The notes under the pieces are model-generated. The model was given only the letters and a program-made list of their open reading frames with translations, was not told the origin of the DNA and ran no database searches. Position numbers and translations under genes: made by a program. A DNA stretch of 64,000 bases from Candidatus Omnitrophota bacterium (GTDB lineage Bacteria; Omnitrophota; Gorgyraeia; Velamenicoccales; JABMQK01): contig JAQTSV010000001.1 in assembly GCA_028711115.1 (NCBI GenBank), positions 198,032-262,031 of the forward strand, in the 5' to 3' direction. Of the stretch, positions 10,436 to 45,731 are shown one piece after another. Every line of letters starts with the position of its first letter. The stretch's first letter is position 1.

Positions 10436-10451
10436 AATGCCGAAGGTGGGA
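10436..10451. repeat. island-distal att repeat (copy of the tRNA-Leu 3' end)
   Basis: aatgccgaaggtggga is identical to 29116-29131, which is the 3' acceptor end of tRNA-Leu on the minus strand. Confidence 0.75.
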
Positions 10452-10765
10452 TTGTAAAAAACTAAATTCCACTCCAATCGTAATTTCCTCTAAATAGCAT
10501 TTCTCGTCGATTAACTTCTGTTCAATTACATTGAGTCACTTTCGATTAGGTAAGCAAAAATGTTAAAATTTCAGACTTTTTGTGCCAAATTTGTGCCAGC
10601 AGAAGTATGTTATTCGCATAGGCAGGGGTTCATGGCTTTATATATATTATTTAATTCCTTACCATTTTGGAATGGCGGAATATAATTAAAATAAAATGTT
10701 ACTCGGATTCTGTTGACTTAAATAACGTATAGGTTATATTATTATTGTAGAAGAAAGGAGCGCAA

Positions 10766-10972
10766 ATGCCTGGTATTCTTAAGCAGTTTGGTAAAAAAGT
10801 TCTTTATTACCGCAAAGGGAAGAAGTTTTCACAGGAAAAACTTGCTAAATTGGCATGTCTTCATCGCACCTACATAAGTCAAATTGAAATTGGCAAAAGG
10901 AACATTGCCCTAAGAAACATTGCTAAACTTGCTAAAGCATTGGGGGTTTCGCCTAAAGATTTACTTAAATGA
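10766..10972 (+). CDS. XRE-family helix-turn-helix regulator
   Basis: FSQEKLAKLACLHRTYISQIEIGKRNIALRNIAKLAKALGVSPKDLL is a classic HTH_3. A TTGACT-N16-TATATT promoter-like sequence lies just upstream. Confidence 0.8.
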   Translation: MPGILKQFGKKVLYYRKGKKFSQEKLAKLACLHRTYISQIEIGKRNIALRNIAKLAKALGVSPKDLLK

Positions 10973-10996
10973 TGTAAGAAAAGCAGGGTATTACAG

Positions 10997-11332
10997 ATGG
11001 AGGTTCATATGATAAAGTGTGTAGACTGTGGTAAGTTAACATTTGAGGTTGAAGGTTCAGATATGTATAAGAACAAAACCGAGGTTTTGTCAGGGTACTG
11101 CCGTAATTGCAATAAAGAGTTTACGGTTGTGAGAATAAAATCAAAAGTATTCAAAGAAGGCCAAAAAGTCAAGTATGAGGTCTACCCAGTTGGAACCGAT
11201 ATAGAAGGTATTATTACTGCAGAGGGTATACGGGCAACTGACCCGAAAATCTTAAAGGAGCTTGATAAACAAGGAATTTCCCACCTTTGTGGATATGATG
11301 AAGCATTAAACGTTAGGAAAACAAGTGATTGA
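10997..11332 (+). CDS. hypothetical zinc-ribbon protein
   Basis: CVDCGK ... CRNCNK forms a four-Cys ribbon. No family recognised. The start could be the internal MIKC. Confidence 0.35.
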   Translation: MEVHMIKCVDCGKLTFEVEGSDMYKNKTEVLSGYCRNCNKEFTVVRIKSKVFKEGQKVKYEVYPVGTDIEGIITAEGIRATDPKILKELDKQGISHLCGYDEALNVRKTSD

Positions 11333-11593
11333 TAATGTCAAAAAAATAAATGGAGAGCACATGGGTGAACAACTGGCTATGCAAAGAGAAGATTTTTAAT
11401 CATGGCCGCACGGGCAGGGATGCATAACTTTGTATATACCGAAAAACCTATATTCGTAGAGTGTAGATTGTGATATAATTATATCTGTGATACTAAGAAA
11501 ATACTTGATTTTTATAAGGGATAGGTATATAAAGATAATGACATTTAAGGTGGTACGTTTGAAGGGGGAACTGCCACGTTAATATAATTAAAA

Positions 11594-11624
11594 CCTTCGC
11601 TCACAAGGCGAGGGATTTTTTATT
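11594..11624 (+). terminator. terminator-like hairpin plus T-run directly upstream of vsr
   Basis: ccttcgc-tcacaag-gcgaggg is followed by attttttattt. It ends 12 nt before the vsr ATG and lies downstream of promoter-like TTGATT-N17-TATAAA (11505-11533). Confidence 0.45.
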
Positions 11625-11635
11625 TATGGGCATCA

Positions 11636-12055
11636 ATGGACAGAATTTCAAAAGAAGCCCGTAGCCGAAATATGGCCGCCATTAAAGGAACAAACACAAT
11701 TCCTGAAATGGCCGTAAGAAGAATGCTTTATTCTTTAGGGTACAGATACAGGCTGCACAAAAAGAATCTTCCTGGTAAGCCTGATATTTTCATAAAGAAT
11801 CGGAATGCTGCAATATTCGTGAATGGCTGTTTTTGGCATCAGCATCCGAATTGCAGATTCGCAACTAAGCCGAAAAGCAACAGAAGATTCTGGATGCAGA
11901 AATTAAAGAAAAACATAAAGCGCGACAGAGAAAATCTTATAAGTCTCAAAGAGCTAGGCTATAAGATCATCTCGATCTGGGAATGTGAAATCGGCAAACA
12001 GTCAATCGGCATGAATCAAAGGCTCGTGAAGAGATTAATAAGATCGTTAGGGTAA
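11636..12055 (+). CDS. vsr: very-short-patch repair endonuclease
   Basis: Carries SRNMAAIKGTNTIPEMAVRR, GKPDIFI and FVNGCFWHQH. Length of 139 aa fits. Confidence 0.9.
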   Translation: MDRISKEARSRNMAAIKGTNTIPEMAVRRMLYSLGYRYRLHKKNLPGKPDIFIKNRNAAIFVNGCFWHQHPNCRFATKPKSNRRFWMQKLKKNIKRDRENLISLKELGYKIISIWECEIGKQSIGMNQRLVKRLIRSLG

Positions 12056-12060
12056 AAGTT

Positions 12061-13155
12061 ATGGAGAAAGCCAATCTTAATGTGGTCGATTTGTTCTGCG
12101 GATGCGGCGGATTGTCGCTTGGGTTTATAGAAGCGGGATATAATGTAATTTTGGGAGTTGACAACGACCCCGCAGCTCTGGAGACATTTAAAGCTAATCA
12201 TAACGGAGCTGAAGCATGGAATACAGATCTTTCTGATAATTCATTTTTAAAAGAAATGTATAGGGCCACAAAGGATAAGAAGATAGATGTAATAATAGCT
12301 GGTCCACCGTGTCAGGGGTTTTCTCTTACCGGACTACGTAATTTTGATGATAAGAGAAATGTTCTTTATCTGGCAGTTATTGCCGCAGTAAAAAAGATAA
12401 AACCGAAAGCTTTTCTTATCGAGAATGTGCCTGGATTGGCAGCTCTTTACGGCGGTCAGGTTAAGGATGAAATTATCAGACGTCTTAAAGATGTGGGGTA
12501 CAATGTGACAATGGATATTCTTTGTGCCGCTGATTACGGCGTGCCGCAGATGCGGAAGCGGGTTTTCTTTGTAGGAATGGAAAAAAGTCTGGGACAGTTT
12601 GAGTTTCCACCAAAAACGCATTTACCGGATAATTATGTTACCTGCGCGGATGCAATCAGTGATCTGCCGAGCAGAGAAGATGAATCGGGAGAGGAAGAGG
12701 ATGATTACGAAAGTCCTCCGCTTACTTCTTATCAGAGAGAACTGCGAAGTAACTGCAGGAAATTGTATAATCATACAGCTACAAACCATACGGAAATTGT
12801 AAAAAATGTTATTAAGCTTGTTCCAGAGGGAGGCGATTACAGAGACCTGCCTAAGGGGGTTGGCGAGCACAGGAAATTCAATGAAGCATGGACCCGTTAT
12901 CACGGCAATAGGCCTTCGCATACAATTGACACCGGCCACCGCAACCACTTTCATTATAAGTACAACAGGGTCCCAACCGTAAGAGAGAATGCTCGCTTAC
13001 AGTCTTTTCCGGATTCTTTTGTTTTCTGCGGAACAAGAACACAACAGAACAGACAAGTTGGTAATGCTGTGCCTCCATTAATGGGATATTATCTTGGCAA
13101 GCAGCTTTTTAGTTATATAAGACAGGAACAGGAATTAGTCTATGGCAAAATATAA
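12061..13155 (+). CDS. DNA (cytosine-5) methyltransferase, M1
   Basis: Motif I DLFCGCGGLSLGF, IV GPPCQGFS, VI ENVPGL, VIII QMRKRVFFVG, IX RENARLQSFPDSF, X GNAVPPLM. Confidence 0.9.
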   Translation: MEKANLNVVDLFCGCGGLSLGFIEAGYNVILGVDNDPAALETFKANHNGAEAWNTDLSDNSFLKEMYRATKDKKIDVIIAGPPCQGFSLTGLRNFDDKRNVLYLAVIAAVKKIKPKAFLIENVPGLAALYGGQVKDEIIRRLKDVGYNVTMDILCAADYGVPQMRKRVFFVGMEKSLGQFEFPPKTHLPDNYVTCADAISDLPSREDESGEEEDDYESPPLTSYQRELRSNCRKLYNHTATNHTEIVKNVIKLVPEGGDYRDLPKGVGEHRKFNEAWTRYHGNRPSHTIDTGHRNHFHYKYNRVPTVRENARLQSFPDSFVFCGTRTQQNRQVGNAVPPLMGYYLGKQLFSYIRQEQELVYGKI

Positions 13156-14377
13156 AATTATAGATCTTTTTGCAGGATGCGGGGGTCTGTGTGATGGGTT
13201 TGAACAGACCGGATTTTTTTATCAGGTTGCCTGTGTGGAATGGGAAAAAGCTCCAAGGGATACACTTGTCAGACGCCTAGAAGACAGATGGGGATATGCA
13301 GATGCACAATATCGCGTAGCCCGCTTTGATATTCAGCGGACAGATGAATTATTCAGGGGCTGGACAAAAGATTCTGTTTATGGTGACGGGGTCGGATTGG
13401 ACAAGCTTGTGGCAAAGAGCGGACATATTGACCTGATTGTAGGTGGTCCTCCATGTCAGGCATATTCCATAGCCGGTAGGATTAGAGATGAAAACGGTAT
13501 GCAGAATGACTACAGGAATTATCTTTTTGAGTGTTATCTGAAGGTCGTTGACAGATACAAGCCAAAAGCATTTGTTTTTGAAAATGTTACAGGCATATTA
13601 AGCGCCCGTCCGCACGGAATCAATATAATTGAAAGAATCAGGCAGACATTCCTTGACCATGGCTATGAACTGATTAATAATATCAGTAATAATGCCATTG
13701 TAGATCTTGTCCATTTTGGAGTTCCGCAGAAAAGATCGCGTGTAATTTTACTTGGCCTAAATCGTTCAAAATTCACTGGAGACAGGCAAAAAGCTTTATC
13801 TGAATTCTACAACGATATTCTGCCCGCTTACCGATCGGACAAAGTATCTACAGTCCGTGATGCGATTGGAAATCTGCCGGCCCTACGTCCGGTGAAAGGC
13901 TCATATAAGGTTAATAATCGTCTCTATTCCCATAAGCCTGACAGCACTGATATTCTGAATCATTATCCACGGTATCATAATTCCAGAGACAGGAAAATAT
14001 TTTATGAACTTGCTGCAGATCTGGATTCGGGTAAAAACCACTATGTATCTGTTGAAGCAATTAAGCAGCTATATGCAGAAAGAACCGGCCGGACCTCAAG
14101 CGTGCATAAGTATTACGTATTACGTCGAAATGAACCTAGCAATACAATTCCGGCCCATTTATACAAGGACGGTCTGCGGCACGTTCACTATGATCCCAAA
14201 CAGGCCAGATCAATTACCGTAAGAGAGGCTGCCCGGCTTCAGACTTTTGATGATGATTTTGAATTCCTGGGCAGCATGGGAGATCAGTATAAAATGATAG
14301 GCAATGCTGTACCGCCGCTGTTTTCAAAAAGATTAGGTTATGCTGTAAAAGATCTGCTTCATAAATATAAACTATAG
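13142..14377 (+). CDS. DNA (cytosine-5) methyltransferase, M2
   Basis: Carries DLFAGCGGLCDGF, GGPPCQAYS, ENVTGI, QKRSRVILLG, REAARLQTFDDDF and GNAVPPLF. It overlaps M1 by 14 nt. Confidence 0.9.
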   Translation: MAKYKIIDLFAGCGGLCDGFEQTGFFYQVACVEWEKAPRDTLVRRLEDRWGYADAQYRVARFDIQRTDELFRGWTKDSVYGDGVGLDKLVAKSGHIDLIVGGPPCQAYSIAGRIRDENGMQNDYRNYLFECYLKVVDRYKPKAFVFENVTGILSARPHGINIIERIRQTFLDHGYELINNISNNAIVDLVHFGVPQKRSRVILLGLNRSKFTGDRQKALSEFYNDILPAYRSDKVSTVRDAIGNLPALRPVKGSYKVNNRLYSHKPDSTDILNHYPRYHNSRDRKIFYELAADLDSGKNHYVSVEAIKQLYAERTGRTSSVHKYYVLRRNEPSNTIPAHLYKDGLRHVHYDPKQARSITVREAARLQTFDDDFEFLGSMGDQYKMIGNAVPPLFSKRLGYAVKDLLHKYKL

Positions 14378-14390
14378 GAAGGGGAACAAT

Positions 14391-15389
14391 ATGACTACAG
14401 AGTATGTTTATATAAGAAAACTTAATGCTCAGGAATTGGGTTTTAGAAAAGGCGAACCTAAAAAAGCCGGCCGCTATATTTATGTTTCGAAAGAATATCT
14501 GTCGTTTTTTCCTCCGCTGAGTACGGTTATCAGAAATGACCATGTGATAATTGATCTTATTCCTCCCGCCCTGAACCATGTTGTATTAACAAGCTTTGTG
14601 TATCACAATGATAAAATTATTGATAATAAACCTAATGGCAGGGACGAATTCAGGATATATCTTAATGAGGCAACTGATCCAGGAAGAAACTATTTTCAGC
14701 CTGAGGATATTATTGTTATTCACCGGTTTGAAACAGAAAACGGTAAAGTGGCATACAGGATGTATTGTTTTCCGGCGGCAAGAAAAGGTACAGAATACGG
14801 TCTTCTGGAAAAACTGCTTGAAGATAAAGGAATTCATGAATCTCATGCCCTGTTGCCTATATCCGCCATCCCATTTCTGAAGATCAGTCGGAATATCGAT
14901 GGTTCAATCGTGGTTGTTCCTGAGGAAGTGAAAGAAGCTGTACTTGAAGAAGAAGTCAGCCTCATTTCTGAAGAAGAAATGAAGAAGGAATTTGAATTTA
15001 CAAGCCTTATCCGGGAATCCGCTTTTAGAGACCTGCTTTTATATTTCTATGATTTCAGATGCGCGGTCACAGGTACAATAATAAGATACGATAGTCTTAA
15101 TAACCTGGAAGCCGCTCATATTATACCTGATGAATTACGGGGTCCGGCACATCCTAAAAACGGATTGCCTTTAAGTCGAGATATGCACTGGGCTTTTGAT
15201 AAAGGTTTTTTTACGCTTAATGACACATATGAGATTGTTGTTCATGAGAAAGTAATAAATAATGAGGTTTTATCTAAGATTCATGGCAAGAAGATCATTT
15301 TACCGGAAGATTCCAGAGCCAGGCCTAGCAGTTTTTCGTTAAACTGGCATAAAGATAATGTATTTGGTGTATTTATCAAATCGATTTAA
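14391..15389 (+). CDS. putative restriction endonuclease with C-terminal HNH nuclease domain
   Basis: CAVTG...LEAAHIIPDELRGPAHPKNGLPLSRDMHWAFDKGFF is an HNH (HNH_2-like) motif. The gene starts 14 nt after M2 in the same operon. Confidence 0.7.
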   Translation: MTTEYVYIRKLNAQELGFRKGEPKKAGRYIYVSKEYLSFFPPLSTVIRNDHVIIDLIPPALNHVVLTSFVYHNDKIIDNKPNGRDEFRIYLNEATDPGRNYFQPEDIIVIHRFETENGKVAYRMYCFPAARKGTEYGLLEKLLEDKGIHESHALLPISAIPFLKISRNIDGSIVVVPEEVKEAVLEEEVSLISEEEMKKEFEFTSLIRESAFRDLLLYFYDFRCAVTGTIIRYDSLNNLEAAHIIPDELRGPAHPKNGLPLSRDMHWAFDKGFFTLNDTYEIVVHEKVINNEVLSKIHGKKIILPEDSRARPSSFSLNWHKDNVFGVFIKSI

Positions 15390-15452: not shown

Positions 15453-16694
15453 ATGAGTACGGAAAGCCCAAGACACGATCCCAGAGAAATAATTCGTGGT
15501 TTTCAGAATTTACTTTCTTCGCCTGCAAAGTCTGTTGGTTTCTTTGCCGGAGCAGGAACATCAATGTCGGTAAAGGACCCAACATCAAAAAAAGCAATTA
15601 TTCCCGGTATTAACGAATTGACCGATACCGTGGAGAGCCAACTATCGACTGGAAAGTTTAAAGAGTGCTATAAGCTTATAAAACAAGAACTCAACAGTAG
15701 TAAACAACCTTCTCAGATTGAATATATACTTTCAAATATACGCCTTAAGGCTCAGGTTGTTGGTCCAGAAACTTTATGTGGTTTGAATCAGCAAGGCTTT
15801 ATAGACTTGGAGACAGAAATTACTGCAAAAATAGAGAATCTGGTTTCTCCTGAGATTCCACAAGATATAATTCACCAAAAATTTGCAAAATGGATACGCA
15901 ATGCTAATAGAAGAAAGGCAATAGAAATATTTACAACAAACTATGATTACTTGTTTGAAGTCGGTTTTGAAAGAGAGAAAGTTCCATATTTTGATGGGTT
16001 CGTTGGGAGTCATAGCCCATTTTTTTACCCTACAGCGGTGTCGGAAAATGATTTACCAATTGATTGGGTGCGCTTATGGAAGGTCCATGGATCTCTCGGA
16101 TGGCGATTTGATAAAAAACAAAAACGAATAATTCGTGAAAAAGTTAAAGGAAGTTTAATGGTTTTTCCGTCTTTGCTAAAATATGACGACTCTAGGAAAC
16201 AGCCATATGTGAGCTTTATAGATCGGTTGGCCAATTTTTTACGAGAGGACGATAGTTTCTTAATAATTTGTGGTTATGGATTTGGCGATCAACACCTTAA
16301 CGATACCATTATTCATGCATTGTCTAGAACGTCTAGATCTGCAGTTTACGCATTTCTTCATGATGATGCTACCGAAGATGATCCCGCAGTTAAATTAGCC
16401 AAATACGAATCCCGTTTGACATTAATGGCAAAAAACTCAGCAGTAATAGGTGGCGTGTACGGATTATGGAAATTGAATAGAGAGCCTTCAGTATCAGATA
16501 GTATTCAGATTAGTTCTTATTTTGACGAAGACGCTATTCCAGCAAATCCGGTTACGCCCGCCAAGGGGAATGATAAAAAAATAACTATTGATGAAATCCA
16601 TTGGGAAGGTAAAGGTATCTTAAAATTGGGGGATTTTTCGAAACTTGTGGATTTTTTAAATCTGATGCTCCCCAAAGCAATGCTTGAGGAATAA
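15453..16694 (+). CDS. SIR2-like (SIR2_2 family) protein, defence-type
   Basis: Carries FFAGAGTSMS, IFTTNYDYLFE, WKVHGSLGW and ICGYGFGDQHLN. AAGGAG RBS is present. HerA follows 2 nt downstream. Confidence 0.8.
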   Translation: MSTESPRHDPREIIRGFQNLLSSPAKSVGFFAGAGTSMSVKDPTSKKAIIPGINELTDTVESQLSTGKFKECYKLIKQELNSSKQPSQIEYILSNIRLKAQVVGPETLCGLNQQGFIDLETEITAKIENLVSPEIPQDIIHQKFAKWIRNANRRKAIEIFTTNYDYLFEVGFEREKVPYFDGFVGSHSPFFYPTAVSENDLPIDWVRLWKVHGSLGWRFDKKQKRIIREKVKGSLMVFPSLLKYDDSRKQPYVSFIDRLANFLREDDSFLIICGYGFGDQHLNDTIIHALSRTSRSAVYAFLHDDATEDDPAVKLAKYESRLTLMAKNSAVIGGVYGLWKLNREPSVSDSIQISSYFDEDAIPANPVTPAKGNDKKITIDEIHWEGKGILKLGDFSKLVDFLNLMLPKAMLEE

Positions 16695-16696
16695 AA

Positions 16697-18502: not shown

Positions 18503-18507
18503 TAATT

Positions 18508-18720
18508 ATGGATATGAAGCCAGTGGCCTCCTCCAATATTCAGGCGGTCGGATATGATGAATCCACAGAAACCATGCGGGTGCAATTTAATAATAGTTCA
18601 GTATACGAGTATCATAATATACCTTTAATTGTATATAATGATTTTATGCAAGCAAGTTCATTAGGGGCTTATTTAAATAGAAATATTCGAAATAACTATT
18701 CATACGAAAAGATAGCATGA
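18508..18720 (+). CDS. KTSC domain protein
   Basis: PVASSNIQAVGYDESTETMRVQFNNSSVYEYHNIPLIVYNDFMQASSLGAYLNRNIRNNY matches my memory of the KTSC domain pattern. It starts 5 nt after herA. Confidence 0.7.
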   Translation: MDMKPVASSNIQAVGYDESTETMRVQFNNSSVYEYHNIPLIVYNDFMQASSLGAYLNRNIRNNYSYEKIA

Positions 18721-18735
18721 TTTCTTAGGTATACG

Positions 18736-19757: not shown

Positions 19758-19778
19758 TATTCTAGTAAAAGTATCCAT

Positions 19779-20711: not shown

Positions 20712-21026
20712 AAGAGAAAAACGATAGTTATTTTTATTGATAATAGCATAGGAAGTGAAACGTAAAATTCAACCTATCAACCGCCCCCCGATTCTTAGAA
20801 GCCTTTATTCTTTGTGAAAACACCCTTCCTTGGTGTTAAAAAGAATTTTCCGGAAAAAACTCCTTTTTTGTCTGAGAAAACCCCAAATAAAGCCTGTCAG
20901 AGCCTTTTTTTCTTCGCCATTTTAGATACGGTTTTTTAATTTTCTTTTTTTATAAAAGTAGAAGAAAATTAAAGGTGACAAGGGAAGACAGAGAAAGATA
21001 AAGACGCAAAGAAATAGGGAGGTGTT

Positions 21027-21966: not shown

Positions 21967-22500
21967 ATGAAGATAGCTATTTATGCGCGGGTAAGTAAGA
22001 ATGATACGAGTCAAGATCCCCAGAATCAACTTAATCCTCTGCGGGATTTTGCTAAGGCTATTGGTGGTGAGGTAGTATCAGAATATGTTGATTTAGCCTC
22101 TGGAGGCAAAAGTGATAGAGAAAGCTTCTTAATGATGCTGAGTGATGCAGATAAAAGGAAATTCGATCTGTTGCTTATTTGGGCTCTAGATAGATTGTCA
22201 AGAGAAGGTATCAGTAATACACTAGGTTATATGGAGAGACTCAAGAAGAATGGCATTGCTATAAAGTCTTTGCAGGAGTCTTGGTTGGATACGAGGGATG
22301 ACGGTATAGGACAGTTGCTCATAGCGGTATTCTCTTGGGTGGCGCAGCAGGAAAGGAAGAGAATTGTCGAAAGGACAAAGGCGGGACTTGAGCGAGCCAA
22401 GCGAGAAGGCAAAACACTTGGTAGACCAACAGGGAAAAGGGATGGTAGACCGCGATCACGGGCAGGCTATTTTTTACGCCACAAAAAATCCTCCCCCTAA
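21967..22500 (+). CDS. small serine recombinase (resolvase/invertase catalytic domain; no recognisable HTH)
   Basis: Carries MKIAIYARVSKNDTSQDPQNQL, LLIWALDRLSREG and ERTKAGLERAKREGKTLGRP. The tail after GRP is Arg/Lys-rich with no HTH pattern. Confidence 0.75.
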   Translation: MKIAIYARVSKNDTSQDPQNQLNPLRDFAKAIGGEVVSEYVDLASGGKSDRESFLMMLSDADKRKFDLLLIWALDRLSREGISNTLGYMERLKKNGIAIKSLQESWLDTRDDGIGQLLIAVFSWVAQQERKRIVERTKAGLERAKREGKTLGRPTGKRDGRPRSRAGYFLRHKKSSP

Positions 22501-22571: not shown

Positions 22572-22733
22572 ATGAAATACAAAGATTGGCTGAGGCTTAT
22601 TAGGAAACATCCGCATAAGGATTTAGATGGTAAATACCTTGCCTACGACGATGGTAAACCAATTGGCGAGATAGTCTTTAAGGAAGGCGTTGTAATTTCC
22701 CGAAAGAAATTAAAGAGGGGAGAAGTAATTTAA
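22572..22733 (+). CDS. hypothetical small ORF (53 aa, hand-translated)
   Basis: MKYKDWLRLIRKHPHKDLDGKYLAYDDGKPIGEIVFKEGVVISRKKLKRGEVI. Below the ORF-track cutoff. No family recognised. Confidence 0.2.
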   Translation: MKYKDWLRLIRKHPHKDLDGKYLAYDDGKPIGEIVFKEGVVISRKKLKRGEVI

Positions 22734-22758
22734 TAGAATATAGAAAGGAAGGTGGCAG

Positions 22759-23508
22759 ATGGAAGGCGGAAGAATGTTGCGTAACTCACAGATTATTGTT
22801 TTAGGTATTTGTATTGCAGCAGCAACGATTGTTTCAAGCATTATTTTATCTCAAGGATTTTTAAAAGTTACGAAGTTCGTTAAAGAACAGATTATAGTTA
22901 CAGGTTCGGCTCAGAAGAACATCAGAAGCGATTACATTGTCTGGAGAGGGATTTTTTCGATTAGACAGGCAGATTTAAAGAGCGCGTATCAGAAGCTTGG
23001 TGAAGATCTGGTAAAAGTCAAAAAATATCTTATTGATAAAAGGGTTGATGAAAAAGAAATAATAGTTTCTCAGATCGTTACAAATAAGATTTACAAGAAG
23101 AATGAAAAGGGGAACGATACAAACGAAATCCAATGGTATGCGTTGAGCCAGACAGTTGAATTGTGTTCGAATGACGTGGACAAGGTAGATAAAATATCCA
23201 GAGAATCCACAGAATTAATAAACGATAATGTGGAATTTGAGTCGCAGGCACCGGAATATTTCTATACCAAACTTGATGAGTTAAAGATAGAGATGCTTGC
23301 TAAGGCCAGCGAGAATGCAAAACAGAGAGCAGAGAGTATGGTTAAGGCCACTGGCAATAAAATAGGTTTTATGAGATCAGCCCGGATGGGCGTGTTCCAG
23401 ATTACGCCAATTAATTCAACCGAGGTTAGTGATTGGGGAGTTAACGATACCACTTCTATTGAAAAGAAAGTAACTGCGGTAGTAAGTGCTAGTTTTGCTA
23501 TTGAATAG
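22759..23508 (+). CDS. SIMPL (DUF541)-like membrane-anchored protein
   Basis: Has an N-terminal TM. IIVTGSAQKNIRSDYIVW..., AKASENAKQRAESMVKATGNKIG and the overall pattern resemble YggE/SIMPL proteins. Confidence 0.5.
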   Translation: MEGGRMLRNSQIIVLGICIAAATIVSSIILSQGFLKVTKFVKEQIIVTGSAQKNIRSDYIVWRGIFSIRQADLKSAYQKLGEDLVKVKKYLIDKRVDEKEIIVSQIVTNKIYKKNEKGNDTNEIQWYALSQTVELCSNDVDKVDKISRESTELINDNVEFESQAPEYFYTKLDELKIEMLAKASENAKQRAESMVKATGNKIGFMRSARMGVFQITPINSTEVSDWGVNDTTSIEKKVTAVVSASFAIE

Positions 23509-23525
23509 TATATAGGTAAGGCAAA

Positions 23526-23939
23526 ATGGGATACGATAGAAAGTTATTAGAATCTTGGATAAGTATGGAGGATTGGGGTGATCATGTCGTTAAGAACGGC
23601 GGACTAGCTTCGAAAGAGGGATTTGATTTTCTCAGCAAAGAATATTTCTTAGAAGTAAAAAGAAAAATAGGCTATTGTAATAAATTATTAAAGAGCCACG
23701 AGGACGCATTTTTGAATTTTGTTATTGCGACGCTCTATGATAAATATGATCTTGATAAATCACCCGCTTATCTTTACAAGCGGTCAGTAAAATATTATTG
23801 CCTGAGAGCACTTGAGATTGATCCTGATTTCACTCCCGCGAAAGAGCTATTGCAGAAAGTAGAGACATGGTTAAACTTTATCGGTGGTGACAAAAACCAA
23901 CATTATATATCAGGAATAGACTTTTTTTCCGGGGATTAA
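23526..23939 (+). CDS. hypothetical protein
   Basis: ORF only. A weak TPR-like stretch (CLRALEIDPDFTPAKELLQK). Confidence 0.3.
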   Translation: MGYDRKLLESWISMEDWGDHVVKNGGLASKEGFDFLSKEYFLEVKRKIGYCNKLLKSHEDAFLNFVIATLYDKYDLDKSPAYLYKRSVKYYCLRALEIDPDFTPAKELLQKVETWLNFIGGDKNQHYISGIDFFSGD

Positions 23940-24014
23940 AAAAGACAAAATAAAGATTGACAAAGTGTATACCTTCGTGGTATCCTTTTATTAAATCAAA
24001 TTTGAGAGGAAATT

Positions 24015-24533
24015 ATGGTATTGACTAAAGCAGCAAAAATAAGAAACGATGAGGGGCTTCTCCTAAACGAATTCTCCCGAAAACTCAGGGAGCGAGGAAT
24101 TGATGTCACCCCTAGGCAGTTGCGGCACTGGGATGCCTCTGGTCTTCTAAAACCATTTATTGATGAATCGAAATATAGGCGTTATAGCTATGATGATATA
24201 GATCAGGCCATATTCATTTTTGTCCTTAATAAGGTGTTAAAATTTAAGTTGCCAAGGATAAGAAACATTTTGAACTGCATGAAACCGGAACAGAAGCTAC
24301 AGGAAATGCTTAACAAAAACCCTGTATCCTTGATGTCCAAGTACAGAAATGCCAAGGGAGAAGAAGGATGGTATTTAAAGAGAGAAATGAGAGATGATAT
24401 AAAGGATATCCAAAATTCTCTCAAGAACTTTAAAGAGAGTATGGAAAAGTTCGAGACAATGCTTGAAGATGCGATAATACATTTCTATAAAGTAATATAC
24501 GAATACCAGCGCAAACTTAATAAAGAGAAGTAG
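24015..24533 (+). CDS. MerR-like HTH regulator
   Basis: VTPRQLRHWDASGLLKP...YRRYSYDDIDQAIFI fits the MerR N-terminal pattern. TTGACA lies at about 23957 upstream. Confidence 0.55.
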   Translation: MVLTKAAKIRNDEGLLLNEFSRKLRERGIDVTPRQLRHWDASGLLKPFIDESKYRRYSYDDIDQAIFIFVLNKVLKFKLPRIRNILNCMKPEQKLQEMLNKNPVSLMSKYRNAKGEEGWYLKREMRDDIKDIQNSLKNFKESMEKFETMLEDAIIHFYKVIYEYQRKLNKEK

Positions 24534-24596
24534 GATTTTTTTTAGGTAAACATTAACACTATGGTAACCTTAATGTAATAGTGTAAGGAGAATGAA

Positions 24597-27269
24597 ATGC
24601 AATATATAGGTAAGGATCAAAAGAATATGGAACTTATTAAAAATCTGTTTGGCGCAAGATTTGATGCCTTTGTAAAACAAATCCAGTTAAATGGTATATC
24701 TTCTTACATTAAAATCGGTAGACCGCTTACTGACACCGATATACAAGATCATCTTTTAGGAAAACATACTTACGGGGTATATGTTGTTTCTAAAGAGAGC
24801 AAGTGTAAATTCTCAGGGTTTGACATTGACATACCCAAAAATATCAATATCGATGAAGAAGCGTGGAAAGAGGTAAAAAACAAAGCTTTAGATCTATTAA
24901 TCACCCTTATGGAAATAGGAGTAAGGCGTGAGCAAATTTTGATAGAACATTCCGGGAGGAGAGGATTCCATATTTGGGTTTTATTTGAAGAAGCTATCCC
25001 AAGCTGGCAAGCCTACTCATTTGCCAAATCGATTTTAGCTAAATCAGGGGTAGCTTGTGAGTTTTTCCCCAAGCAATACCTTATTGGGGATGATGGCTAT
25101 GGTAGCGCAATCAAGCTCCCTTTAGGCATCCACCTGGCTACTGGTCAAAGGAGTCATTTTGTGGATGAAGAATTTAATTCTTTTCAGGATCAATTTGAAT
25201 ATCTGCGTAAGGTGGAACGCATACCAATAAGTTTTATTCAGGACATTCTATTAAAGAACGGCATTCCTTTAGAATCTGAGACAAATGCATTAGAAGTATC
25301 AGAAGACATGGATTTTGATTGGGCAAAGAAGGGTGGTTCATTGGAAGCATTGATTAATAATTGTCGAGCCTTGCAGGAGATTATTGAGAGGGCGATAGAG
25401 ACGGGACATCTTATACACGATGAGAGATTATTTTTAGTTAATATTCTGACCCTATTTGGAGAAGAAGGCGAAAGAAGGATACATGAAATTATTAGTCATT
25501 GTAGTGACTATGACTTCAGCCGGACTCAGAATGAAATCAATTATAGGAAGGACAGAAAATATAAGCCTATGACTTGTCAGTGGCCAAAAGATAGAGGGTT
25601 ATGTAGTTATAGCTGCAATCTTGAGCCAAAGAGTGGGCAGAATGCATCCCCTATTCAACTTTGTTTCAAAACGCATATACGGGATGGGGTGTTTGAGATT
25701 ATGGCAGATAACCAGAATTGCCTTACGTTAAAATCAGTAGATGGTCTAACCTTTAAGCTGTCAGATTTTGAGTCTAATAAATACGGAGTATGGACAAGAA
25801 TTGAGTTATCAGGTAAGGATGGTCGTATTTATACTGATAGATTTATGATTTCGTCAAGCAAGAGCAGAAAACAATTTATAAAGAGGTGTCTTGAGTTCGA
25901 GGGTAAGGAAGAACTTAGCTCTATAGCTATGGAAATGTGCCTCATGTCTATCGAGCAAATCTTAAGAGATAAAATTGCTGAAGAGAATAAACATTCCAAA
26001 CTTAAAAAACCTAAATATGAGATGACTCCAAAAGAAATAGAGGAAGCAATGGTCTTTGCAACTGATCCCGATCTTATTAATAATATCAAGCGGGATCTGG
26101 CACAGCTAGGTCATGTTGGAGAGGATTCAAATAAGTTTCTTCTTTATATAGCTTGCACATCCCGAAAAAGTAAGAAGCCACTTGCCTGTGTTATAAAAGG
26201 ACAGAGTAGTTCTGGTAAAAATGCTTTGGTTCTTACTGTTCTTGATCTTATGCCTGAAGAAGAAAAGAAAGTTATTTCACGGCTTACTCCTAATGCTCTT
26301 TTTTATCTAGCCCAGGATGGACTACCACATTCAATTCTTTGCATCGCAGAAAAAGTTGGCTCTGAGCAGGCAGACTATTCCGTGCGCTCCATGATCAGCG
26401 AAGGGAATTTAGTCAGCTTGACCGTCGTCAAAAATGAACAAACAGGACAGTTTGAGACACAGGAAATAGTGGTTGCTGGTCCCATCGTTTATATTGAGAC
26501 TACAACACAGCTTACTATAAACGATGAGAATGCCACAAGGCTCATAAGTATTTATCTTGATGATTCGGAAATGCAGACATCACGTATCCACGCAGCGCAA
26601 AGACAGGCAAAAACCCTGGATGGTTTAGCAGAAGAAGAGAATATGAGCAAGATTAAACGAAAGCATCAAAACTTTCAGCGACTGCTAAAGGTAGTGAACG
26701 TAGTGATCCCCTATGCCAATCATTTAATCTTTCCCACAGGCTCAATTCGCACACGCAGAGATAACGAGAAGTTTCTTACCTTGATTATAGCGGTTGCGCT
26801 TCTTCGGCAGTTTCAGAAAGAGACCAAGAATAAAAATAATATAACTTACATAGAAGCAGATCTTAAAGATTACCAGCTTGCGTATGAACTAAGTCAGACC
26901 GTGTTGAATCAAACTCTTGATGAGGTCAGCGTAAAAAGCCGAGAGCTCATGGAAATAATTAATAATATGGTTTCAGAATGGCATGGAGACAGCGGGAAAG
27001 GACTCGAGTTACATAACAAAGAATCGGGGCGTATTCTAACCAATATTATCTTTACGAGAGCCGATGTGCGAGACCGTATAAAAAATTGGAGTGATTCTTT
27101 GCTACACGCTTGTATGCGGGAACTTGGCTATCACGATCTATTACGGGTGATTCAGGGTGGTCAAGGGAAGACGTATAAGTATACGCTTCTTAATTGCAAT
27201 CAGAGCGTTAATCAGGTGGCAAATAAATTACTTACGCCAGAGGAATTGAAGGCAAAGATAGATTTGTAA
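24597..27269 (+). CDS. primase-polymerase (AEP/PrimPol) fused to P-loop helicase-like domain
   Basis: GFDIDIPK and HSGRRGFHIWVLF are the AEP catalytic motifs. IKGQSSSGKNALV (Walker A) and ILCIAEKV (Walker B-like) lie in the C-terminal half. Confidence 0.75.
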   Translation: MQYIGKDQKNMELIKNLFGARFDAFVKQIQLNGISSYIKIGRPLTDTDIQDHLLGKHTYGVYVVSKESKCKFSGFDIDIPKNINIDEEAWKEVKNKALDLLITLMEIGVRREQILIEHSGRRGFHIWVLFEEAIPSWQAYSFAKSILAKSGVACEFFPKQYLIGDDGYGSAIKLPLGIHLATGQRSHFVDEEFNSFQDQFEYLRKVERIPISFIQDILLKNGIPLESETNALEVSEDMDFDWAKKGGSLEALINNCRALQEIIERAIETGHLIHDERLFLVNILTLFGEEGERRIHEIISHCSDYDFSRTQNEINYRKDRKYKPMTCQWPKDRGLCSYSCNLEPKSGQNASPIQLCFKTHIRDGVFEIMADNQNCLTLKSVDGLTFKLSDFESNKYGVWTRIELSGKDGRIYTDRFMISSSKSRKQFIKRCLEFEGKEELSSIAMEMCLMSIEQILRDKIAEENKHSKLKKPKYEMTPKEIEEAMVFATDPDLINNIKRDLAQLGHVGEDSNKFLLYIACTSRKSKKPLACVIKGQSSSGKNALVLTVLDLMPEEEKKVISRLTPNALFYLAQDGLPHSILCIAEKVGSEQADYSVRSMISEGNLVSLTVVKNEQTGQFETQEIVVAGPIVYIETTTQLTINDENATRLISIYLDDSEMQTSRIHAAQRQAKTLDGLAEEENMSKIKRKHQNFQRLLKVVNVVIPYANHLIFPTGSIRTRRDNEKFLTLIIAVALLRQFQKETKNKNNITYIEADLKDYQLAYELSQTVLNQTLDEVSVKSRELMEIINNMVSEWHGDSGKGLELHNKESGRILTNIIFTRADVRDRIKNWSDSLLHACMRELGYHDLLRVIQGGQGKTYKYTLLNCNQSVNQVANKLLTPEELKAKIDL

Positions 27270-27521
27270 ACTTTACCATAACTTCGTTTAAAAAAGTTAA
27301 CTCCTCTGTTTACAAAGAGATACAAACGATTTTACTAACTTTTTTAGTTTTTCCGGGGGTAATTGGCGTGAATATGTATAAAGACAAGGGAGCATAAATG
27401 TATATATATTCATTATCTACACTGAAAAAGGTAAAAAGTTTTAATTTTAGTTTAAGTTTGAATTCAAAAACTTTTTTAAAAAAGCTATGAAAAAGTTGAA
27501 AAAGAAAGGAGATGATATTTA

Positions 27522-27680
27522 ATGTACAGTCCAAAAATTAAAGAGGATTTGATAGGTAAGATGTTTCAGATTAAACAAAAGACTGGCAAGCCCATGACTC
27601 GACAAGTCAACGAAGCGATAAGAATGTATGTATCTAGGTTTGAGCAGAATGAAAGTAAGGAGGCAACCAGTGACAGATAA
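27522..27680 (+). CDS. small ribbon-helix-helix-like protein (52 aa, hand-translated)
   Basis: MYSPKIKEDLIGKMFQIKQKTGKPMTRQVNEAIRMYVSRFEQNE. AGGAG RBS is present. Below the ORF-track cutoff. Confidence 0.4.
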   Translation: MYSPKIKEDLIGKMFQIKQKTGKPMTRQVNEAIRMYVSRFEQNESKEATSDR

Positions 27681-27849
27681 TTACGATAATGTTTGTAGTT
27701 GCTGTGGAGATCAAGAAATTGATCCAGCTTATCACATCTGTGAGAAGTGTAGACGAAAGATACGAGATTTAGGCAGTAAAGAACGTAATGAAGACGAGAA
27801 TTCAAACATAAACGAAAAGGTTAAGGTGGAAAATGGAAATGTATCTTGA
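27670..27849 (+). CDS. small zinc-ribbon protein
   Basis: GTG start with AAGGAGG 7 nt upstream. Carries CSCC ... CEKC. This is the in-frame C-terminal part of the listed ORF 27628-27849. Confidence 0.3.
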   Translation: MTDNYDNVCSCCGDQEIDPAYHICEKCRRKIRDLGSKERNEDENSNINEKVKVENGNVS

Positions 27850-28003
27850 TAAAAAGGAATTAGCTAAGGTTTTGAATATTCCAATCACGTCTATCGATTA
27901 TTACAGAAGGGAAAAAGGCATGCCAAGCATAAAAATAGGCAAGCATAACAGATATGTTTTGAGTGACATTAGAAATTGGTTGGAGAAAACTAAACAAAAC
28001 TAA
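27833..28003 (+). CDS. xis: excisionase-type HTH protein (56 aa, hand-translated)
   Basis: MEMYLDKKELAKVLNIPITSIDYYRREKGMPSIKIGKHNRYVLSDIRNWLEK has the HTH_17/AlpA-like pattern. Its stop overlaps the integrase ATG (TAATG). Confidence 0.65.
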   Translation: MEMYLDKKELAKVLNIPITSIDYYRREKGMPSIKIGKHNRYVLSDIRNWLEKTKQN

Positions 28004-29082
28004 TGGCTAGAGTTGTTTCAAGAGGAGATAGTTGGCGTATCTGGTGGTATGTTGGGAAAGATAGGAAGTTTGCTTCTATTTCAAAAACTATTTTCCCGAA
28101 GAAGAAAGACGCCGAGAACGAAGCCCACAGGAGAGAATTTGGAGGAGTATTGACTAAAGATACCACCTTCAGAGATTTTGCCTTACAAGTTTTAGAGGGC
28201 AAGAGACCATCTGATAGGACAAGAGAGGTCTTTCTGGAGACTGTAAATCATTTTGACATTTTCATGAGGGGACGCTCCATCCAATTTATGAGGTATTATT
28301 CCGAGGCCTTGATTAATGAATACAAGAACGAAGCAAAGAACAGGGATAGGTCAAGCTCTTCCATCAATAGGGATATTACCTACTTAAAAGAAATCGGAAA
28401 GTATGCTTTTAGCAAACAACTCATTTCTAATTTTAATGAAAAAGAAATAAAAGAATTCCCTTTTATAAAAAAGAATTGGATTTTACCAACAAGGGAAGAA
28501 AGAGAAAGAATCCTTAAGTGGTTTAAGACGAACGAACCTTATTTCTATGCTTGGATGTATTTCATAATCACAAGGGGTTGGCGGCGAGACGAATTCAGAA
28601 CAATGTTAGTTAAAGATTTCAGTTTTGAAAATGAAGTACTATATATACAAAAAGCCAAAACAGAACCAAGAGCTGCGAAGCTTACACAAGAGGATTGCCG
28701 AGTCCTTAATGAGCATATTATTTTACTAAAGAAAATGAAGAAGTATAATCTGGATGGCTTGATGTATCCTCCACTCATAAAGGGAAATTTTATCGGGAGC
28801 GAAACATTAAACAATCGTCTTAAGAAGGCATGCAGGGATTTAGGGATAACTAAAAATATTACACCCCATCTTTTCAGACATTGGGTTGTCACGAATATAT
28901 TAGATAATACCGCTAATGTGGAAGTGGTAAAGGCTATAACAGGGCATAAAGACAGTCAAACAATCTTTAAGTATTATGCCCACGCTACGCCTGAGAATGT
29001 TGCTAAGGGGTTGGAAATAACAAGAGTTGATACAGGATTTTTGTCGAAAACTGTGCCAAAAACTGTGCCAAGAAAGGAGTAA
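28003..29082 (+). CDS. int: tyrosine integrase
   Basis: Carries ITRGWRRDEF (Arg I), HLFRHW (HxxR) and ITGHKDSQTIFKYYAH (His...Tyr). It ends 36 nt from the tRNA-Leu 3' end. Confidence 0.85.
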   Translation: MARVVSRGDSWRIWWYVGKDRKFASISKTIFPKKKDAENEAHRREFGGVLTKDTTFRDFALQVLEGKRPSDRTREVFLETVNHFDIFMRGRSIQFMRYYSEALINEYKNEAKNRDRSSSSINRDITYLKEIGKYAFSKQLISNFNEKEIKEFPFIKKNWILPTREERERILKWFKTNEPYFYAWMYFIITRGWRRDEFRTMLVKDFSFENEVLYIQKAKTEPRAAKLTQEDCRVLNEHIILLKKMKKYNLDGLMYPPLIKGNFIGSETLNNRLKKACRDLGITKNITPHLFRHWVVTNILDNTANVEVVKAITGHKDSQTIFKYYAHATPENVAKGLEITRVDTGFLSKTVPKTVPRKE

Positions 29083-29117
29083 AATCGTGTTTTGTCGACG
29101 AGCAGATAAAAATTTAA

Positions 29118-29200
29118 TGCCGAAGGTGGGAGTCGAACCCACATGTCCGTAAAGACACCGGTTTTTGAGACCGGCGTGTCTGCCATTCCACCACTTCGGC
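29118..29200 (-). tRNA. tRNA-Leu (anticodon CAA), no encoded CCA
   Basis: Hand-folded. Acceptor GCCGAAG/CTTCGGC, anticodon arm CCGGT-CTCAAAA-ACCGG, long variable arm, T arm GTGGG-TTCGACT-CCCAC. Confidence 0.85.
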
Positions 29201-45728: not shown

Positions 45729-45731
45729 AAA

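What the first reader, a model, noticed from the sequence alone, without database searches (positions are those of the whole stretch)
10436..29200. An integrative island of about 18.7 kb in tRNA-Leu(CAA), with defence cargo and its own replication module
- **Boundary repeat.** The 16-mer aatgccgaaggtggga occurs at 10436-10451 and again at 29116-29131, where it forms the 3' acceptor end of a hand-foldable tRNA-Leu(CAA).
- **Mobility genes at the tRNA end.** A tyrosine integrase ends 36 nt from the tRNA, and an excisionase-type HTH gene overlaps its start (TAATG).
- **Content between the repeats.** All genes here are accessory: two XRE regulators, vsr plus two Dcm plus an HNH restriction enzyme, SIR2-HerA-KTSC-nuclease, a second HNH, an outer-membrane protein, a serine recombinase, SIMPL, MerR and PrimPol-helicase.
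- **Flanks.** The flanking genes are ordinary (a histidine kinase on one side, tRNAs and pilins on the other).
- **Chance.** A chance 16-mer match at exactly these positions in 64 kb is very unlikely.
Basis: partly seen in the sequence, partly recalled or inferred. Interest (0 to 1): 0.65.

Follow-up and report, generated by a model that had tools for sequence, protein, structure and literature searches.

The report
Integrative defence island in tRNA-Leu
An 18.7-kb mobile island carrying anti-phage genes and a plasmid-type replication gene is inserted at the end of a leucine tRNA gene in an uncultured Omnitrophota bacterium; this is an ordinary kind of element, seen here in a little-studied phylum.

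Summary
The 16-mer occurs only at 10436-10451 and 29116-29131. The second copy is the last 14 nt of a tRNA-Leu(CAA) gene plus 2 nt. An HTH_17 excisionase-like gene and a tyrosine integrase end about 35 nt from that tRNA.

The interpretation also holds.
- **Empty site.** A related Omnitrophota genome (L005) has the same tRNA-Leu next to the same core genes with no island. Its tRNA-downstream sequence matches the window's left repeat plus flank.
- **Same target.** Integrase relatives of 89, 68, 50 and 42% identity all sit about 35 nt from a tRNA-Leu 3' end, each with different cargo. One (L022) has both ends, with a 15-nt repeat.
- **Binding sites.** Doublet repeats inside both island ends co-vary between elements (TGTGCCA here, TGTGTCA in L022), which suggests integrase arm sites.
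- **Mosaic build.** There is a conserved XRE/resolvase/xis/int module and a separately acquired PrimPol replication module. The distal cargo holds a Vsr/Dcm/Dcm/HNH restriction system and SIR2-HerA.

No phage or conjugation genes were found. No same-species empty site or circular junction was found, so current mobility is unproven. The helicase label is not verified.

Verdict: a new member of a known kind, with modest interest. A partial second tRNA-Leu copy beside the intact gene remains unexplained.

The parts
10436..10451 (-). Left boundary core copy. This is the displaced native 3' end of tRNA-Leu (14 nt plus 2 nt).
   Evidence: Exact repeat. With its outer flank it matches the L005 tRNA end plus downstream sequence over 22 nt.
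10497..10517 (+). Conserved box GCAtTTCTCGTCGaTTAACTT inside the left end. It contains CTCGTCGA, inverted relative to the right-end TCGACGAG box. It is a putative recombination-protein binding site.
   Evidence: It is the longest conserved block between the left ends of the window island and L022, whose integrases are only 42% identical.
10581..10598 (+). Left arm doublet, TGTGCCA twice with 11-nt spacing. Putative arm-type integrase sites.
   Evidence: Four of the 10 TGTGCCA copies in the window form two doublets inside the island ends. L022 has TGTGTCA doublets at the equivalent places in both of its ends.
10766..11332 (+). XRE-type regulator (68 aa) and a 111-aa hypothetical, followed by a terminator-like hairpin at 11594-11624.
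   Evidence: HTH_3 at 3.5e-16. Terminator scan.
11636..15389 (+). Cargo 1, a type II m5C restriction-modification cluster: Vsr (11636-12055), Dcm (12061-13155), Dcm (13142-14377) and an HNH_2 endonuclease (14391-15389).
   Evidence: Pfam. PADLOC Vsr at 2.7e-27, MTase_II at 3e-118 and 2e-128, HNH restriction enzyme at 5e-17.
15453..19512 (+). Cargo 2: SIR2 (15453-16694) and HerA (16697-18502), plus tightly packed KTSC (18508-18720) and a Cas4-like PD-(D/E)XK nuclease (18736-19512).
   Evidence: PADLOC SIR2 at 3.9e-117 and HerA at 2.5e-152. Pfam KTSC at 1.7e-23 and PDDEXK_1 at 2.6e-15.
19563..19778 (-). XRE-type repressor candidate (71 aa from the ATG at 19778; the ORF is open up to 19886). It is conserved across the island family.
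   Evidence: HTH_3 at 2.5e-14. It is 76% identical to L017 and 54% to L020. It was called as 71 aa in the deposited annotation.
19779..19838 (+). Divergent control region. It holds a rightward promoter-like site, TTGACA-18-TATACT, overlapped by two ACACC...GGTGT palindromes that are putative operators.
   Evidence: Best sigma-70-like match in the island, 11 of 12. The layout is conserved in L017 and L020.
19868..21779 (+). Small HNH protein (19868-20182), a 112-aa hypothetical (20373-20711), and a 250-aa protein with a weak partial Chlam_OMP match (21027-21779).
   Evidence: Pfam. No PHROG or NCBIfam matches.
21967..22500 (+). Small serine recombinase (resolvase). The catalytic YARVS motif is present. 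It has no C-terminal HTH and ends in a conserved basic tail.
   Evidence: PF00239 at 2.6e-35. Translation. Family alignment.
22572..27849 (+). Replication module: orf53, SIMPL (22759-23508), hyp137, MerR (24015-24533), an 890-aa PrimPol/P-loop protein (24597-27269), an AT-rich non-coding stretch (27270-27521) and orf52/orf59.
   Evidence: orf53, hyp137, PrimPol, orf52 and orf59 are 45-83% identical to L014, which carries a different integrase. The N-terminus matches CRISPR-associated PrimPol structures (7nqf, 1.3e-29). The C-terminal half matches primases of 127 plasmids.
27833..28003 (+). Excisionase-like HTH_17 protein (56 aa). Its stop overlaps the integrase start.
   Evidence: PF12728 at 1.6e-7. 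77% identical to L017.
28003..29082 (+). Tyrosine integrase (359 aa).
   Evidence: PF00589 at 2.6e-18. The translation shows the recombinase motifs ...TRGWRRDEF......HLFRHW... and ...GHKD...YYAH. Relatives of 89-42% identity all lie next to a tRNA-Leu.
29052..29070 (+). Right arm doublet, TGTGCCA twice with 12-nt spacing, inside the last codons of the integrase gene.
   Evidence: Present in all five elements. The DNA motif is conserved while the encoded peptide is not.
29094..29102 (+). GTCGACGAG box 13 nt from the core.
   Evidence: GACG is invariant across the five aligned right ends (GACGAG in four, GACGAC in L022).
29116..29131 (-). Right boundary core copy, within the intact tRNA.
29118..29200 (-). 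Intact tRNA-Leu(CAA), the integration target.
   Evidence: ARAGORN. Rfam RF00005 at 59.9 bits.
29241..29331 (-). Partial second tRNA-Leu copy (positions 1-44). It has a 45-nt GC-rich insert in the anticodon loop and lies 39 nt upstream of the intact gene. Its relation to the island is unknown.
   Evidence: Repeat D2. Sequence. A 38-nt exact repeat. Absent in all relatives.

Best explanation
The segment 10452-29115 is an integrative, plasmid-like genomic island of a Candidatus Omnitrophota genome.

**Insertion.** It entered by site-specific recombination between a 16-bp core on the circular element and the 3' end of tRNA-Leu(CAA), catalysed by its own tyrosine integrase. The island supplies a replacement tRNA 3' end, so the gene stays intact. 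The original 3' end is left as the distal repeat at 10436-10451.

**Inferred steps.**
- The integrase binds the co-varying doublet repeats in both arms. Together with the HTH_17 protein it reverses the reaction to excise a circle.
- An XRE repressor, transcribed divergently, sits on palindromic operators over a rightward promoter. That promoter drives the resolvase, replication, xis and int genes.
- The excised circle is copied by the PrimPol/P-loop protein. The small resolvase resolves multimers.
- The element has no transfer genes of its own and would depend on a helper or on host DNA uptake.

**Layout.** The island is bimodular and mosaic. A conserved recombination and control core lies next to the tRNA. 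A replication module shared with an element that has a different integrase is inserted between resolvase and xis. The distal cargo platform holds a type II m5C restriction-modification system with Vsr, and a SIR2-HerA abortive-infection system.
For: **Shown.**
- Exact 16-bp repeat, one copy being the tRNA 3' end.
- Integrase and HTH_17 genes lie at the tRNA end.
- L005 has the same tRNA and flanking genes without the island, and its native downstream sequence equals the window's left repeat plus flank over 22 nt.
- L003 also lacks the island.
- Integrase relatives of 89, 68, 50 and 42% identity each end about 35 nt from a tRNA-Leu 3' end, with other cargo.
- L022 is a 7-kb island bounded by a 15-nt repeat of the same tRNA segment.
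- Arm doublets occur in both ends and co-vary between the window and L022.
- Conserved boxes flank the core.
- The promoter and operator layout is conserved in three elements.
- Module identities are discordant. Integrase is 89% but resolvase 37% to L017; integrase is 50% but resolvase 75% to L021. The PrimPol module is shared with L014.
- Defence models match strongly.
- The PrimPol N-terminus matches solved CRISPR-associated PrimPols. The C-terminal half matches primases on 127 plasmids and 0 phages.
- The tetranucleotide signature is distinct across the whole island.
Against: - No empty site from the same species exists in the data. The left-flank protein has no relatives, and the predicted attB junction was not found in JGI metagenomes.
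- No circular junction or coverage data were available, so excision and replication are not shown.
- GC content is almost the same as the host (37.9 against 39.3%).
- Two housekeeping regions are also tetranucleotide outliers.
- The order of the flanking genes differs between the window and L005, so the junction is comparable only over about 22 nt.
- The helicase function is unverified.
- The genome is a metagenome assembly.
- The partial tRNA copy next to the target is not explained by this model.
Confidence: 0.85

Rival explanations
1. A phage satellite of the P4 or PICI type. It would be an integrated element that excises and replicates when a helper phage infects, and is packaged in the helper's capsids. 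The defence genes would sit in its cargo hotspot.
For: - The layout resembles satellites: integrase, xis, a divergent XRE switch, a primase-type replicase and defence cargo.
- From my own knowledge, P4 also targets a tRNA-Leu(CAA) gene (leuX).
- Several small ORFs have no assignable function.
Against: - No capsid-remodelling, small-terminase, packaging or other phage-category PHROG hit.
- No relatives of the integrase or PrimPol in IMG/VR.
- The replicase C-terminal half matches plasmid proteins, not phage proteins.
Confidence: 0.08
2. A formerly mobile island that is now fixed and inactive. The genes would be retained for defence, with no excision or replication any more.
For: - All six contigs carrying the flank protein show the island in place.
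- GC equals the host.
- No attP or attB junction was found.
Against: - The 16-bp repeats are perfect.
- Integrase, xis, resolvase and PrimPol ORFs are intact.
- Arm sites are intact and match the family pattern.
- The tetranucleotide signature is still distinct.
Confidence: 0.05
3. An integrative mobilizable or conjugative element of the actinomycete AICE type. The HerA/FtsK-like ATPase would be the DNA translocase for transfer rather than a defence protein.
For: - The set of int, xis, a replication protein and an FtsK/HerA-family ATPase recalls AICEs (my own knowledge).
- HerA gives weak FtsK_SpoIIIE and TrwB hits.
Against: - HerA matches the SIR2-associated HerA model at 2.5e-152 over its full length. 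It lies 2 nt after a SIR2 gene that matches at 3.9e-117.
- No relaxase or type IV secretion domains were seen in any island protein.
- Related islands lack this ATPase.
Confidence: 0.02

Closest known systems
Pipolins (piPolB-encoding integrative defence islands; Mateo-Caceres and Redrejo-Rodriguez 2024, PMC11551731)
   Same: [quoted passage not shown]
- They encode their own DNA-synthesis enzyme, a tyrosine recombinase and an excisionase.
- They are bimodular, with a conserved core near the integration site and a distal platform of exchangeable defence genes.
   Different: - There is no primer-independent PolB here. The replication enzyme is an AEP PrimPol fused to a P-loop domain.
- The host phylum is Omnitrophota.
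- A small resolvase without an HTH is part of the conserved core.
Satellite phage P4 and P4-like defence-hotspot satellites
   Same: - Tyrosine integrase targeting a tRNA-Leu(CAA) gene.
- A large primase/NTPase replicase.
- Variable anti-phage cargo (my own knowledge).
   Different: - No sid, psu, delta or cos-related functions were detected.
- The primase is AEP-type rather than Toprim-type.
- No relatives in viral contig collections.
Archaeal integrative plasmids with prim-pol replicases (pRN/pSSVi type; the pT26-2 family came up in the search)
   Same: - A small circular replicon built around a roughly 900-aa PrimPol plus NTPase protein.
- A tyrosine integrase that inserts into a tRNA gene (my own knowledge; the pT26-2 paper was listed but not read).
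   Different: - This is a bacterial host.
- The integrase gene is not split by integration.
- No detectable sequence relation beyond the AEP fold.
- Large defence cargo.
Plasmid primases with a CHC2 zinc finger or Toprim N-terminus and the same C-terminal domain (for example on Enterobacter, Pseudomonas and Leptospira plasmids)
   Same: The C-terminal roughly 500 aa are 32-36% identical, with E around 1e-65. The L017 island uses exactly this DnaG-zinc-ribbon version.
   Different: In the window protein the N-terminal primase domain is replaced by an AEP PrimPol related to CRISPR-associated PrimPols.

Membership tests
tRNA-targeting tyrosine-integrase genomic island | Tyrosine recombinase with catalytic motifs, encoded at one end | tested here: met
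   PF00589 at 2.6e-18. The R, HxxR, H and Y motifs are visible in the translation. The gene ends about 35 nt from the tRNA.
tRNA-targeting tyrosine-integrase genomic island | Direct repeats at both ends, one being the 3' part of an intact tRNA gene | tested here: met
   Exact 16-bp repeat. tRNA-Leu(CAA) called by ARAGORN and Rfam.
tRNA-targeting tyrosine-integrase genomic island | Absent from the same site in related genomes | tested here: met
   L005 and L003 have the tRNA and flanking genes without the island. These are other species; no same-species comparison exists.
tRNA-targeting tyrosine-integrase genomic island | Excision to a circular form (attP junction) | not testable with these tools
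   There is no access to reads. The one junction scan run, for the predicted empty-site (attB) sequence in JGI metagenome contigs, found nothing; the attP junction itself was not searched.
Pipolin | Primer-independent family B DNA polymerase (piPolB) | tested here: not met
   No island protein has a PolB domain. The replication protein is an AEP PrimPol.
Phage satellite (P4-like or PICI) | Capsid-redirecting or packaging genes (sid/psu/delta, terS, cpm/ppi) or other phage-derived genes | tested here: not met
   PHROGs gave only primase hits and unknown-function families. Small ORFs without matches leave room for undetected functions.
Integrative conjugative or mobilizable element | Relaxase, coupling protein or type IV secretion genes | tested here: not met
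   No such Pfam domains above threshold. The only FtsK/TrwB-like hits are secondary hits of the SIR2-associated HerA.
SIR2-HerA anti-phage system | Adjacent SIR2-domain and HerA ATPase genes that match the system's models | tested here: met
   PADLOC SIR2 PDLC04093 at 3.9e-117 and HerA PDLC04105 at 2.5e-152. The genes are 2 nt apart.
SIR2-HerA anti-phage system | Phage-triggered NAD+ depletion and protection from phage | not testable with these tools
   This needs an experiment.
Type II restriction-modification with Vsr | m5C methyltransferase(s), a cognate endonuclease and a Vsr mismatch endonuclease in one cluster | tested here: met
   Pfam and PADLOC hits for all four genes. Specificity and activity were not tested.

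The most novel reading that the evidence does not exclude
The conserved trio of resolvase, HTH_17 protein and tyrosine integrase may be a real two-recombinase machine rather than an integrase plus a housekeeping resolvase. In this family the small serine recombinase has lost its C-terminal HTH and keeps only a conserved basic tail. It might use the adjacent HTH_17 'excisionase' as its DNA-binding partner, in a split arrangement reminiscent of IS607. It could take part in excision, in cargo exchange at the distal platform, or in producing the odd partial tRNA copy. Other readings that are also not excluded are an Omnitrophota phage-satellite family and a second, unknown element class that targets the tRNA anticodon loop.
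Probability: 0.07. Interest if true: 0.6.

Novelty: new member of a known kind. Interest (0 to 1): 0.3.

Why it matters
Omnitrophota are abundant, uncultured, very small bacteria, and their mobile elements are barely described. The library search for Omnitrophota with integrase and genomic island returned six papers, and none of the titles or abstracts listed concerns such an element.

This locus, together with its relatives, defines a family of tRNA-Leu-specific integrative elements in the phylum:
- The att site can be read directly: a core, conserved boxes and co-varying arm doublets.
- There is a repressor-controlled switch.
- Replication and defence modules are swappable.

That gives a concrete candidate for a site-specific integration tool and a view of how defence systems move in this phylum. 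It does not change how such elements are thought to work.

Tried and rejected
1. **Same-species empty site.**
   - The predicted attB junction (34 nt) had no exact match in JGI metagenome contigs.
   - The 180-aa left-flank protein has no relative other than itself among 5.8 billion proteins.
   - All contigs carrying it also carry the island.
2. **Related elements in public collections.**
   - IMG/VR scans with PrimPol and integrase found nothing.
   - A metagenome scan with the integrase found nothing.
   - Relatives came only through the protein search and contig look-ups.
3. **Left ends of L017 and L020.** They lie outside the 10 kb fetched, so only L022 gave both ends.
4. **The helicase claim.**
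   - No PDB sequence match for the C-terminal half and no Pfam match.
   - The AlphaFold model from 5 sequences was too poor to use (mean pLDDT 43), so no fold search was run.
5. **Origin of the insert and spacer in the partial tRNA copy.** No similarity was found elsewhere in the window or in any fetched locus. Simple tandem duplication was rejected because the two upstream flanks are not alike.
6. **Contig ends of independent Logan assemblies as evidence of alternative junctions.**
   - L011 ends exactly where a k=31 graph would branch at the 38-nt tRNA-half repeat, which supports that repeat being real.
   - L012 ends at window 29142, which does not fit the branch predicted for an empty site (29145), so nothing was concluded.
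7. **Composition as a stand-alone test.** GC is uninformative. Housekeeping regions (RF2/SecA at 44-49 kb) are tetranucleotide outliers too.
8. **Tandem double island.** Rejected. There is no third core copy with up to 2 mismatches, and related islands also place cargo between the distal end and the XRE(-) gene.

Full report
**1. Observation.**

The 16-mer AATGCCGAAGGTGGGA is present at 10436-10451 and 29116-29131 and nowhere else in the window, even with two mismatches. ARAGORN and Rfam both call a tRNA-Leu(CAA) on the minus strand at about 29118-29200.

Read on the tRNA strand, the repeat is TCCCACCTTCGGCA plus TT. That is the 3' strand of the T stem, the 3' strand of the acceptor stem and the discriminator, followed by two downstream bases.

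A 359-aa tyrosine recombinase at 28003-29082 stops about 35 nt from the tRNA end. A 56-aa HTH_17 protein at 27833-28003 overlaps its start.

Corrections:
- The gene next to the left repeat is a 180-aa hypothetical, with the GAF histidine kinase one gene further out.
- The outer-membrane label rests on a partial Chlam_OMP hit.
- The helicase label is not verified.

Exact 16-mers repeated somewhere in 64 kb are not rare in themselves (9 seen, 0.77 expected in shuffles). The weight lies in the position on a tRNA end beside an integrase.

**2. Source and comparators.**

The window is from the Candidatus Omnitrophota assembly GCA_028714715.1, on a 1.55-Mb contig. A scan of one genome per species with the left-flank spermidine-synthase-like protein returned seven loci.

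- **L005** is another Omnitrophota MAG, with flank proteins about 67% identical. Its order is LeuRS, AP endonuclease, tRNA-Ala, tRNA-Leu(CAA), then 156 nt, histidine kinase, the hyp180-like gene and the spermidine-synthase-like gene. Nothing is inserted.
- Its tRNA end and downstream bases, TCCCACCTTCGGCATTTTTTAT, are identical over 22 nt to the reverse complement of window 10430-10451. The junction on the integrase side shares only the 16 nt. So the left copy is the displaced native tRNA end with its native downstream T-run. This is what integration at the tRNA 3' end predicts.
- **L003** is a single-cell genome. It also lacks the island and carries a radical-SAM/SPASM/PqqD cluster there instead.

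The comparison is between species, and the order of kinase and hyp180 differs. No same-species relative exists in the databases.

**3. The integrase family always sits at tRNA-Leu.**

The protein search found 34 relatives. Those with usable contigs are listed below.

| Protein | Identity to window integrase | Loci | Anticodon of adjacent tRNA-Leu |
|---|---|---|---|
| P0008 | 89% | L017-L019 | CAA |
| P0009 | 68% | L020 | CAA |
| P0016 | 50% | L021 | CAA |
| P0038 | 42% | L022, L023 | CAG |

- In every case with DNA in hand, the gene ends about 35 nt from the 3' end of a tRNA-Leu in the same orientation.
- Several lie beside the same AP-endonuclease/LeuRS neighbourhood.
- L022 contains both ends. 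GTGCGGAAGGAGGGA occurs at 4105 and 11118, the same tRNA segment as here, bounding a 7-kb island.
- Cargo differs in each: an nSTAND3 protein, radical SAM and MauJ in L017; HNH and PD-(D/E)XK proteins in L020; TPR and unknown proteins in L022.

**4. Anatomy of the att region.**

- **Arm doublets.** Inside both ends of the window island there is a doublet of TGTGCCA, at 10581/10592 and 29052/29064. These four account for 4 of the 10 copies in the window. L022 has TGTGTCA doublets at the equivalent distances in both of its ends, 4 of its 5 copies.
- **DNA signal, not peptide.** The right doublet lies in the last codons of the integrase gene in all five elements. The DNA motif is kept while the peptide is not: KTVPKTVPRKE here, against AVSNNVSNKG, FMQIPMQKRG and LMPKVMPKKG. 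Co-variation of left and right doublets, and conservation at the DNA level, point to arm-type binding sites. This is an inference.
- **Boxes near the core.** A GACGAG-type box lies 13-20 nt from the core in all right ends (GACG invariant; L022 reads GACGAC). A 20-nt block containing the inverted CTCGTCGA is the only long conserved stretch between the left ends of the window and L022.

**5. Control region.**

The XRE gene on the minus strand (71 aa from 19778) is conserved in the family. In the 90-nt gap before the rightward genes lies the best promoter-like match of the island, TTGACA-18-TATACT. It is overlapped by two ACACC...GGTGT palindromes.

The same arrangement is found in L017 and L020. 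All genes from 19868 to the integrase are co-oriented. A repressor-controlled rightward operon is the likely logic, but this is inferred.

**6. Mosaic structure.**

XRE(-), a small resolvase, a small HTH protein and the integrase recur in every relative, usually adjacent. In the window, 5.3 kb are inserted between resolvase and xis: orf53, SIMPL, hyp137, MerR, PrimPol, orf52 and orf59. Five of these are 45-83% identical to L014, a 9-kb contig with MerR, PrimPol, HTH_17 and an unrelated integrase.

Module histories disagree:

| Module | L017 | L021 |
|---|---|---|
| Integrase identity | 89% | 50% |
| Resolvase identity | 37% | 75% |

L017 carries a DnaG-zinc-ribbon version of the replicase with the same C-terminal domain.

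The PrimPol protein is rare, with four close homologues.
- Its N-terminus matches CRISPR-associated PrimPol structures and passes the NCBIfam cut-off for that family.
- Its C-terminal half is 32-36% identical to primases on 127 plasmids and to none on phages.
- It has a conserved Walker A-type motif, but no helicase family or structure match was obtained.

**7. Cargo.**

- The Vsr, two Dcm and HNH_2 genes form a type II m5C restriction-modification cluster.
- SIR2 and HerA match the defence-system models at 3.9e-117 and 2.5e-152. The system's mechanism is described in PMC11514289, PMC11472057 and PMC13434337.
- KTSC and a Cas4-like nuclease follow with 5- and 15-nt gaps. Their role is unknown, and the literature search linked KTSC and HerA only in broad surveys.
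- PHROGs found no structural or packaging genes. No relaxase or secretion domains were seen.

**8. Composition.**

GC is 37.9% in the island against 39.3% outside. The tetranucleotide profile of every island block correlates less with the host profile (0.88-0.91) than most host blocks do (0.945-0.97, leave-one-out).

Two host regions are also outliers. One of them is RF2/SecA. Composition therefore supports the case but does not prove it.

**9. Comparison with known systems.**

- **Pipolins** are the closest in logic. They sit at a tRNA 3' end, are bounded by direct repeats, have their own DNA-synthesis enzyme, keep a core next to the att site and carry distal defence cargo. The defining piPolB is absent here.
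- **P4-like satellites** share the tRNA-Leu(CAA) target and a primase/NTPase replicase (my own knowledge), but no satellite-specific genes were found.
- **Archaeal prim-pol integrative plasmids** are a functional analogue.

The element is best filed as a new member of the general class of tRNA-integrating, plasmid-like defence islands. It represents a family apparently specific to Omnitrophota.

**10. What remains open.**

Excision, replication, transfer route and defence activity are untested.

The partial tRNA-Leu copy at 29241-29331 is not explained by the integration model:
- It has a 38-nt exact identity to the intact gene, a 45-nt insert after anticodon base C34, and then a 39-nt spacer.
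- It sits where L003 has its only tRNA-Leu.
- It is unique to this genome.
- An independent assembly breaks exactly where this repeat would make a k=31 graph branch, so it is probably real.

Noticed in passing
window 29241-29331 (minus strand), with spacer 29201-29240: A second, partial tRNA-Leu copy covers positions 1 to about 44. Of this, 38 nt are identical to the intact gene. A 45-nt GC-rich insert follows anticodon base C34, then AAAAACCGGT, then a 39-nt AT-rich spacer before the intact tRNA. It occupies the position of the single tRNA-Leu in L003 and is absent from all relatives. Its origin is unknown.
   Followed up: partly
window 21967-22500; L017 6459-7007; L020 9208-9783; L021 601-1197; L022 9281-9811: The small serine recombinase conserved next to xis and int in this island family lacks the usual C-terminal HTH. 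It ends in a conserved basic tail (LGRPxGxxDxxxRxxxGYxLRY). Its relationships disagree with those of the integrase.
   Followed up: partly
window 29950-31400: Two type IV pilin-like genes (30200-30613 and 30892-31284) share 32-nt and 16-17-nt exact repeats. They lie between tRNA-Ala and the AP endonuclease. L003 and L005 have no genes there, so this is a second lineage-specific insertion beside the tRNA pair. It falls in the lowest-GC stretch of the window.
   Followed up: partly
L003 2062-9357: In the single-cell genome AM-311-N09, the space downstream of the same tRNA-Leu holds a cluster of three radical-SAM/SPASM proteins, PqqD, a nucleotidyltransferase and an HPr-kinase-like protein. It looks like a RiPP cluster and has no integrase.
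   Followed up: no
window 18508-19512: KTSC (70 aa) and a Cas4-like PD-(D/E)XK nuclease are packed directly behind SIR2-HerA with gaps of 5 and 15 nt. They may be a four-gene variant of the system or a separate pair. PADLOC has no model for the KTSC protein.
   Followed up: partly
L022 13840-21032: About 3 kb beyond the tRNA-Leu island of L022 there is a tmRNA gene. It is followed by a D12 methyltransferase, ParB_N, other genes and a second integrase, which looks like another integrated element at ssrA.
   Followed up: no
window 44000-49700 and 60000-64000: These regions are tetranucleotide outliers outside the island. The first encodes a T2SSE ATPase, a peptide-chain release factor and SecA, with GC up to 0.45. 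The second includes the secretin gene and, at 63311-63790, 24-30-nt exact repeats spaced 408 nt apart.
   Followed up: partly
window 11585: Two independent Logan contigs from SRR22315509 both end at window position 11585. This is inside the island, just before a terminator-like hairpin and the Vsr gene. The cause (coverage or strain variation) is unknown.
   Followed up: no
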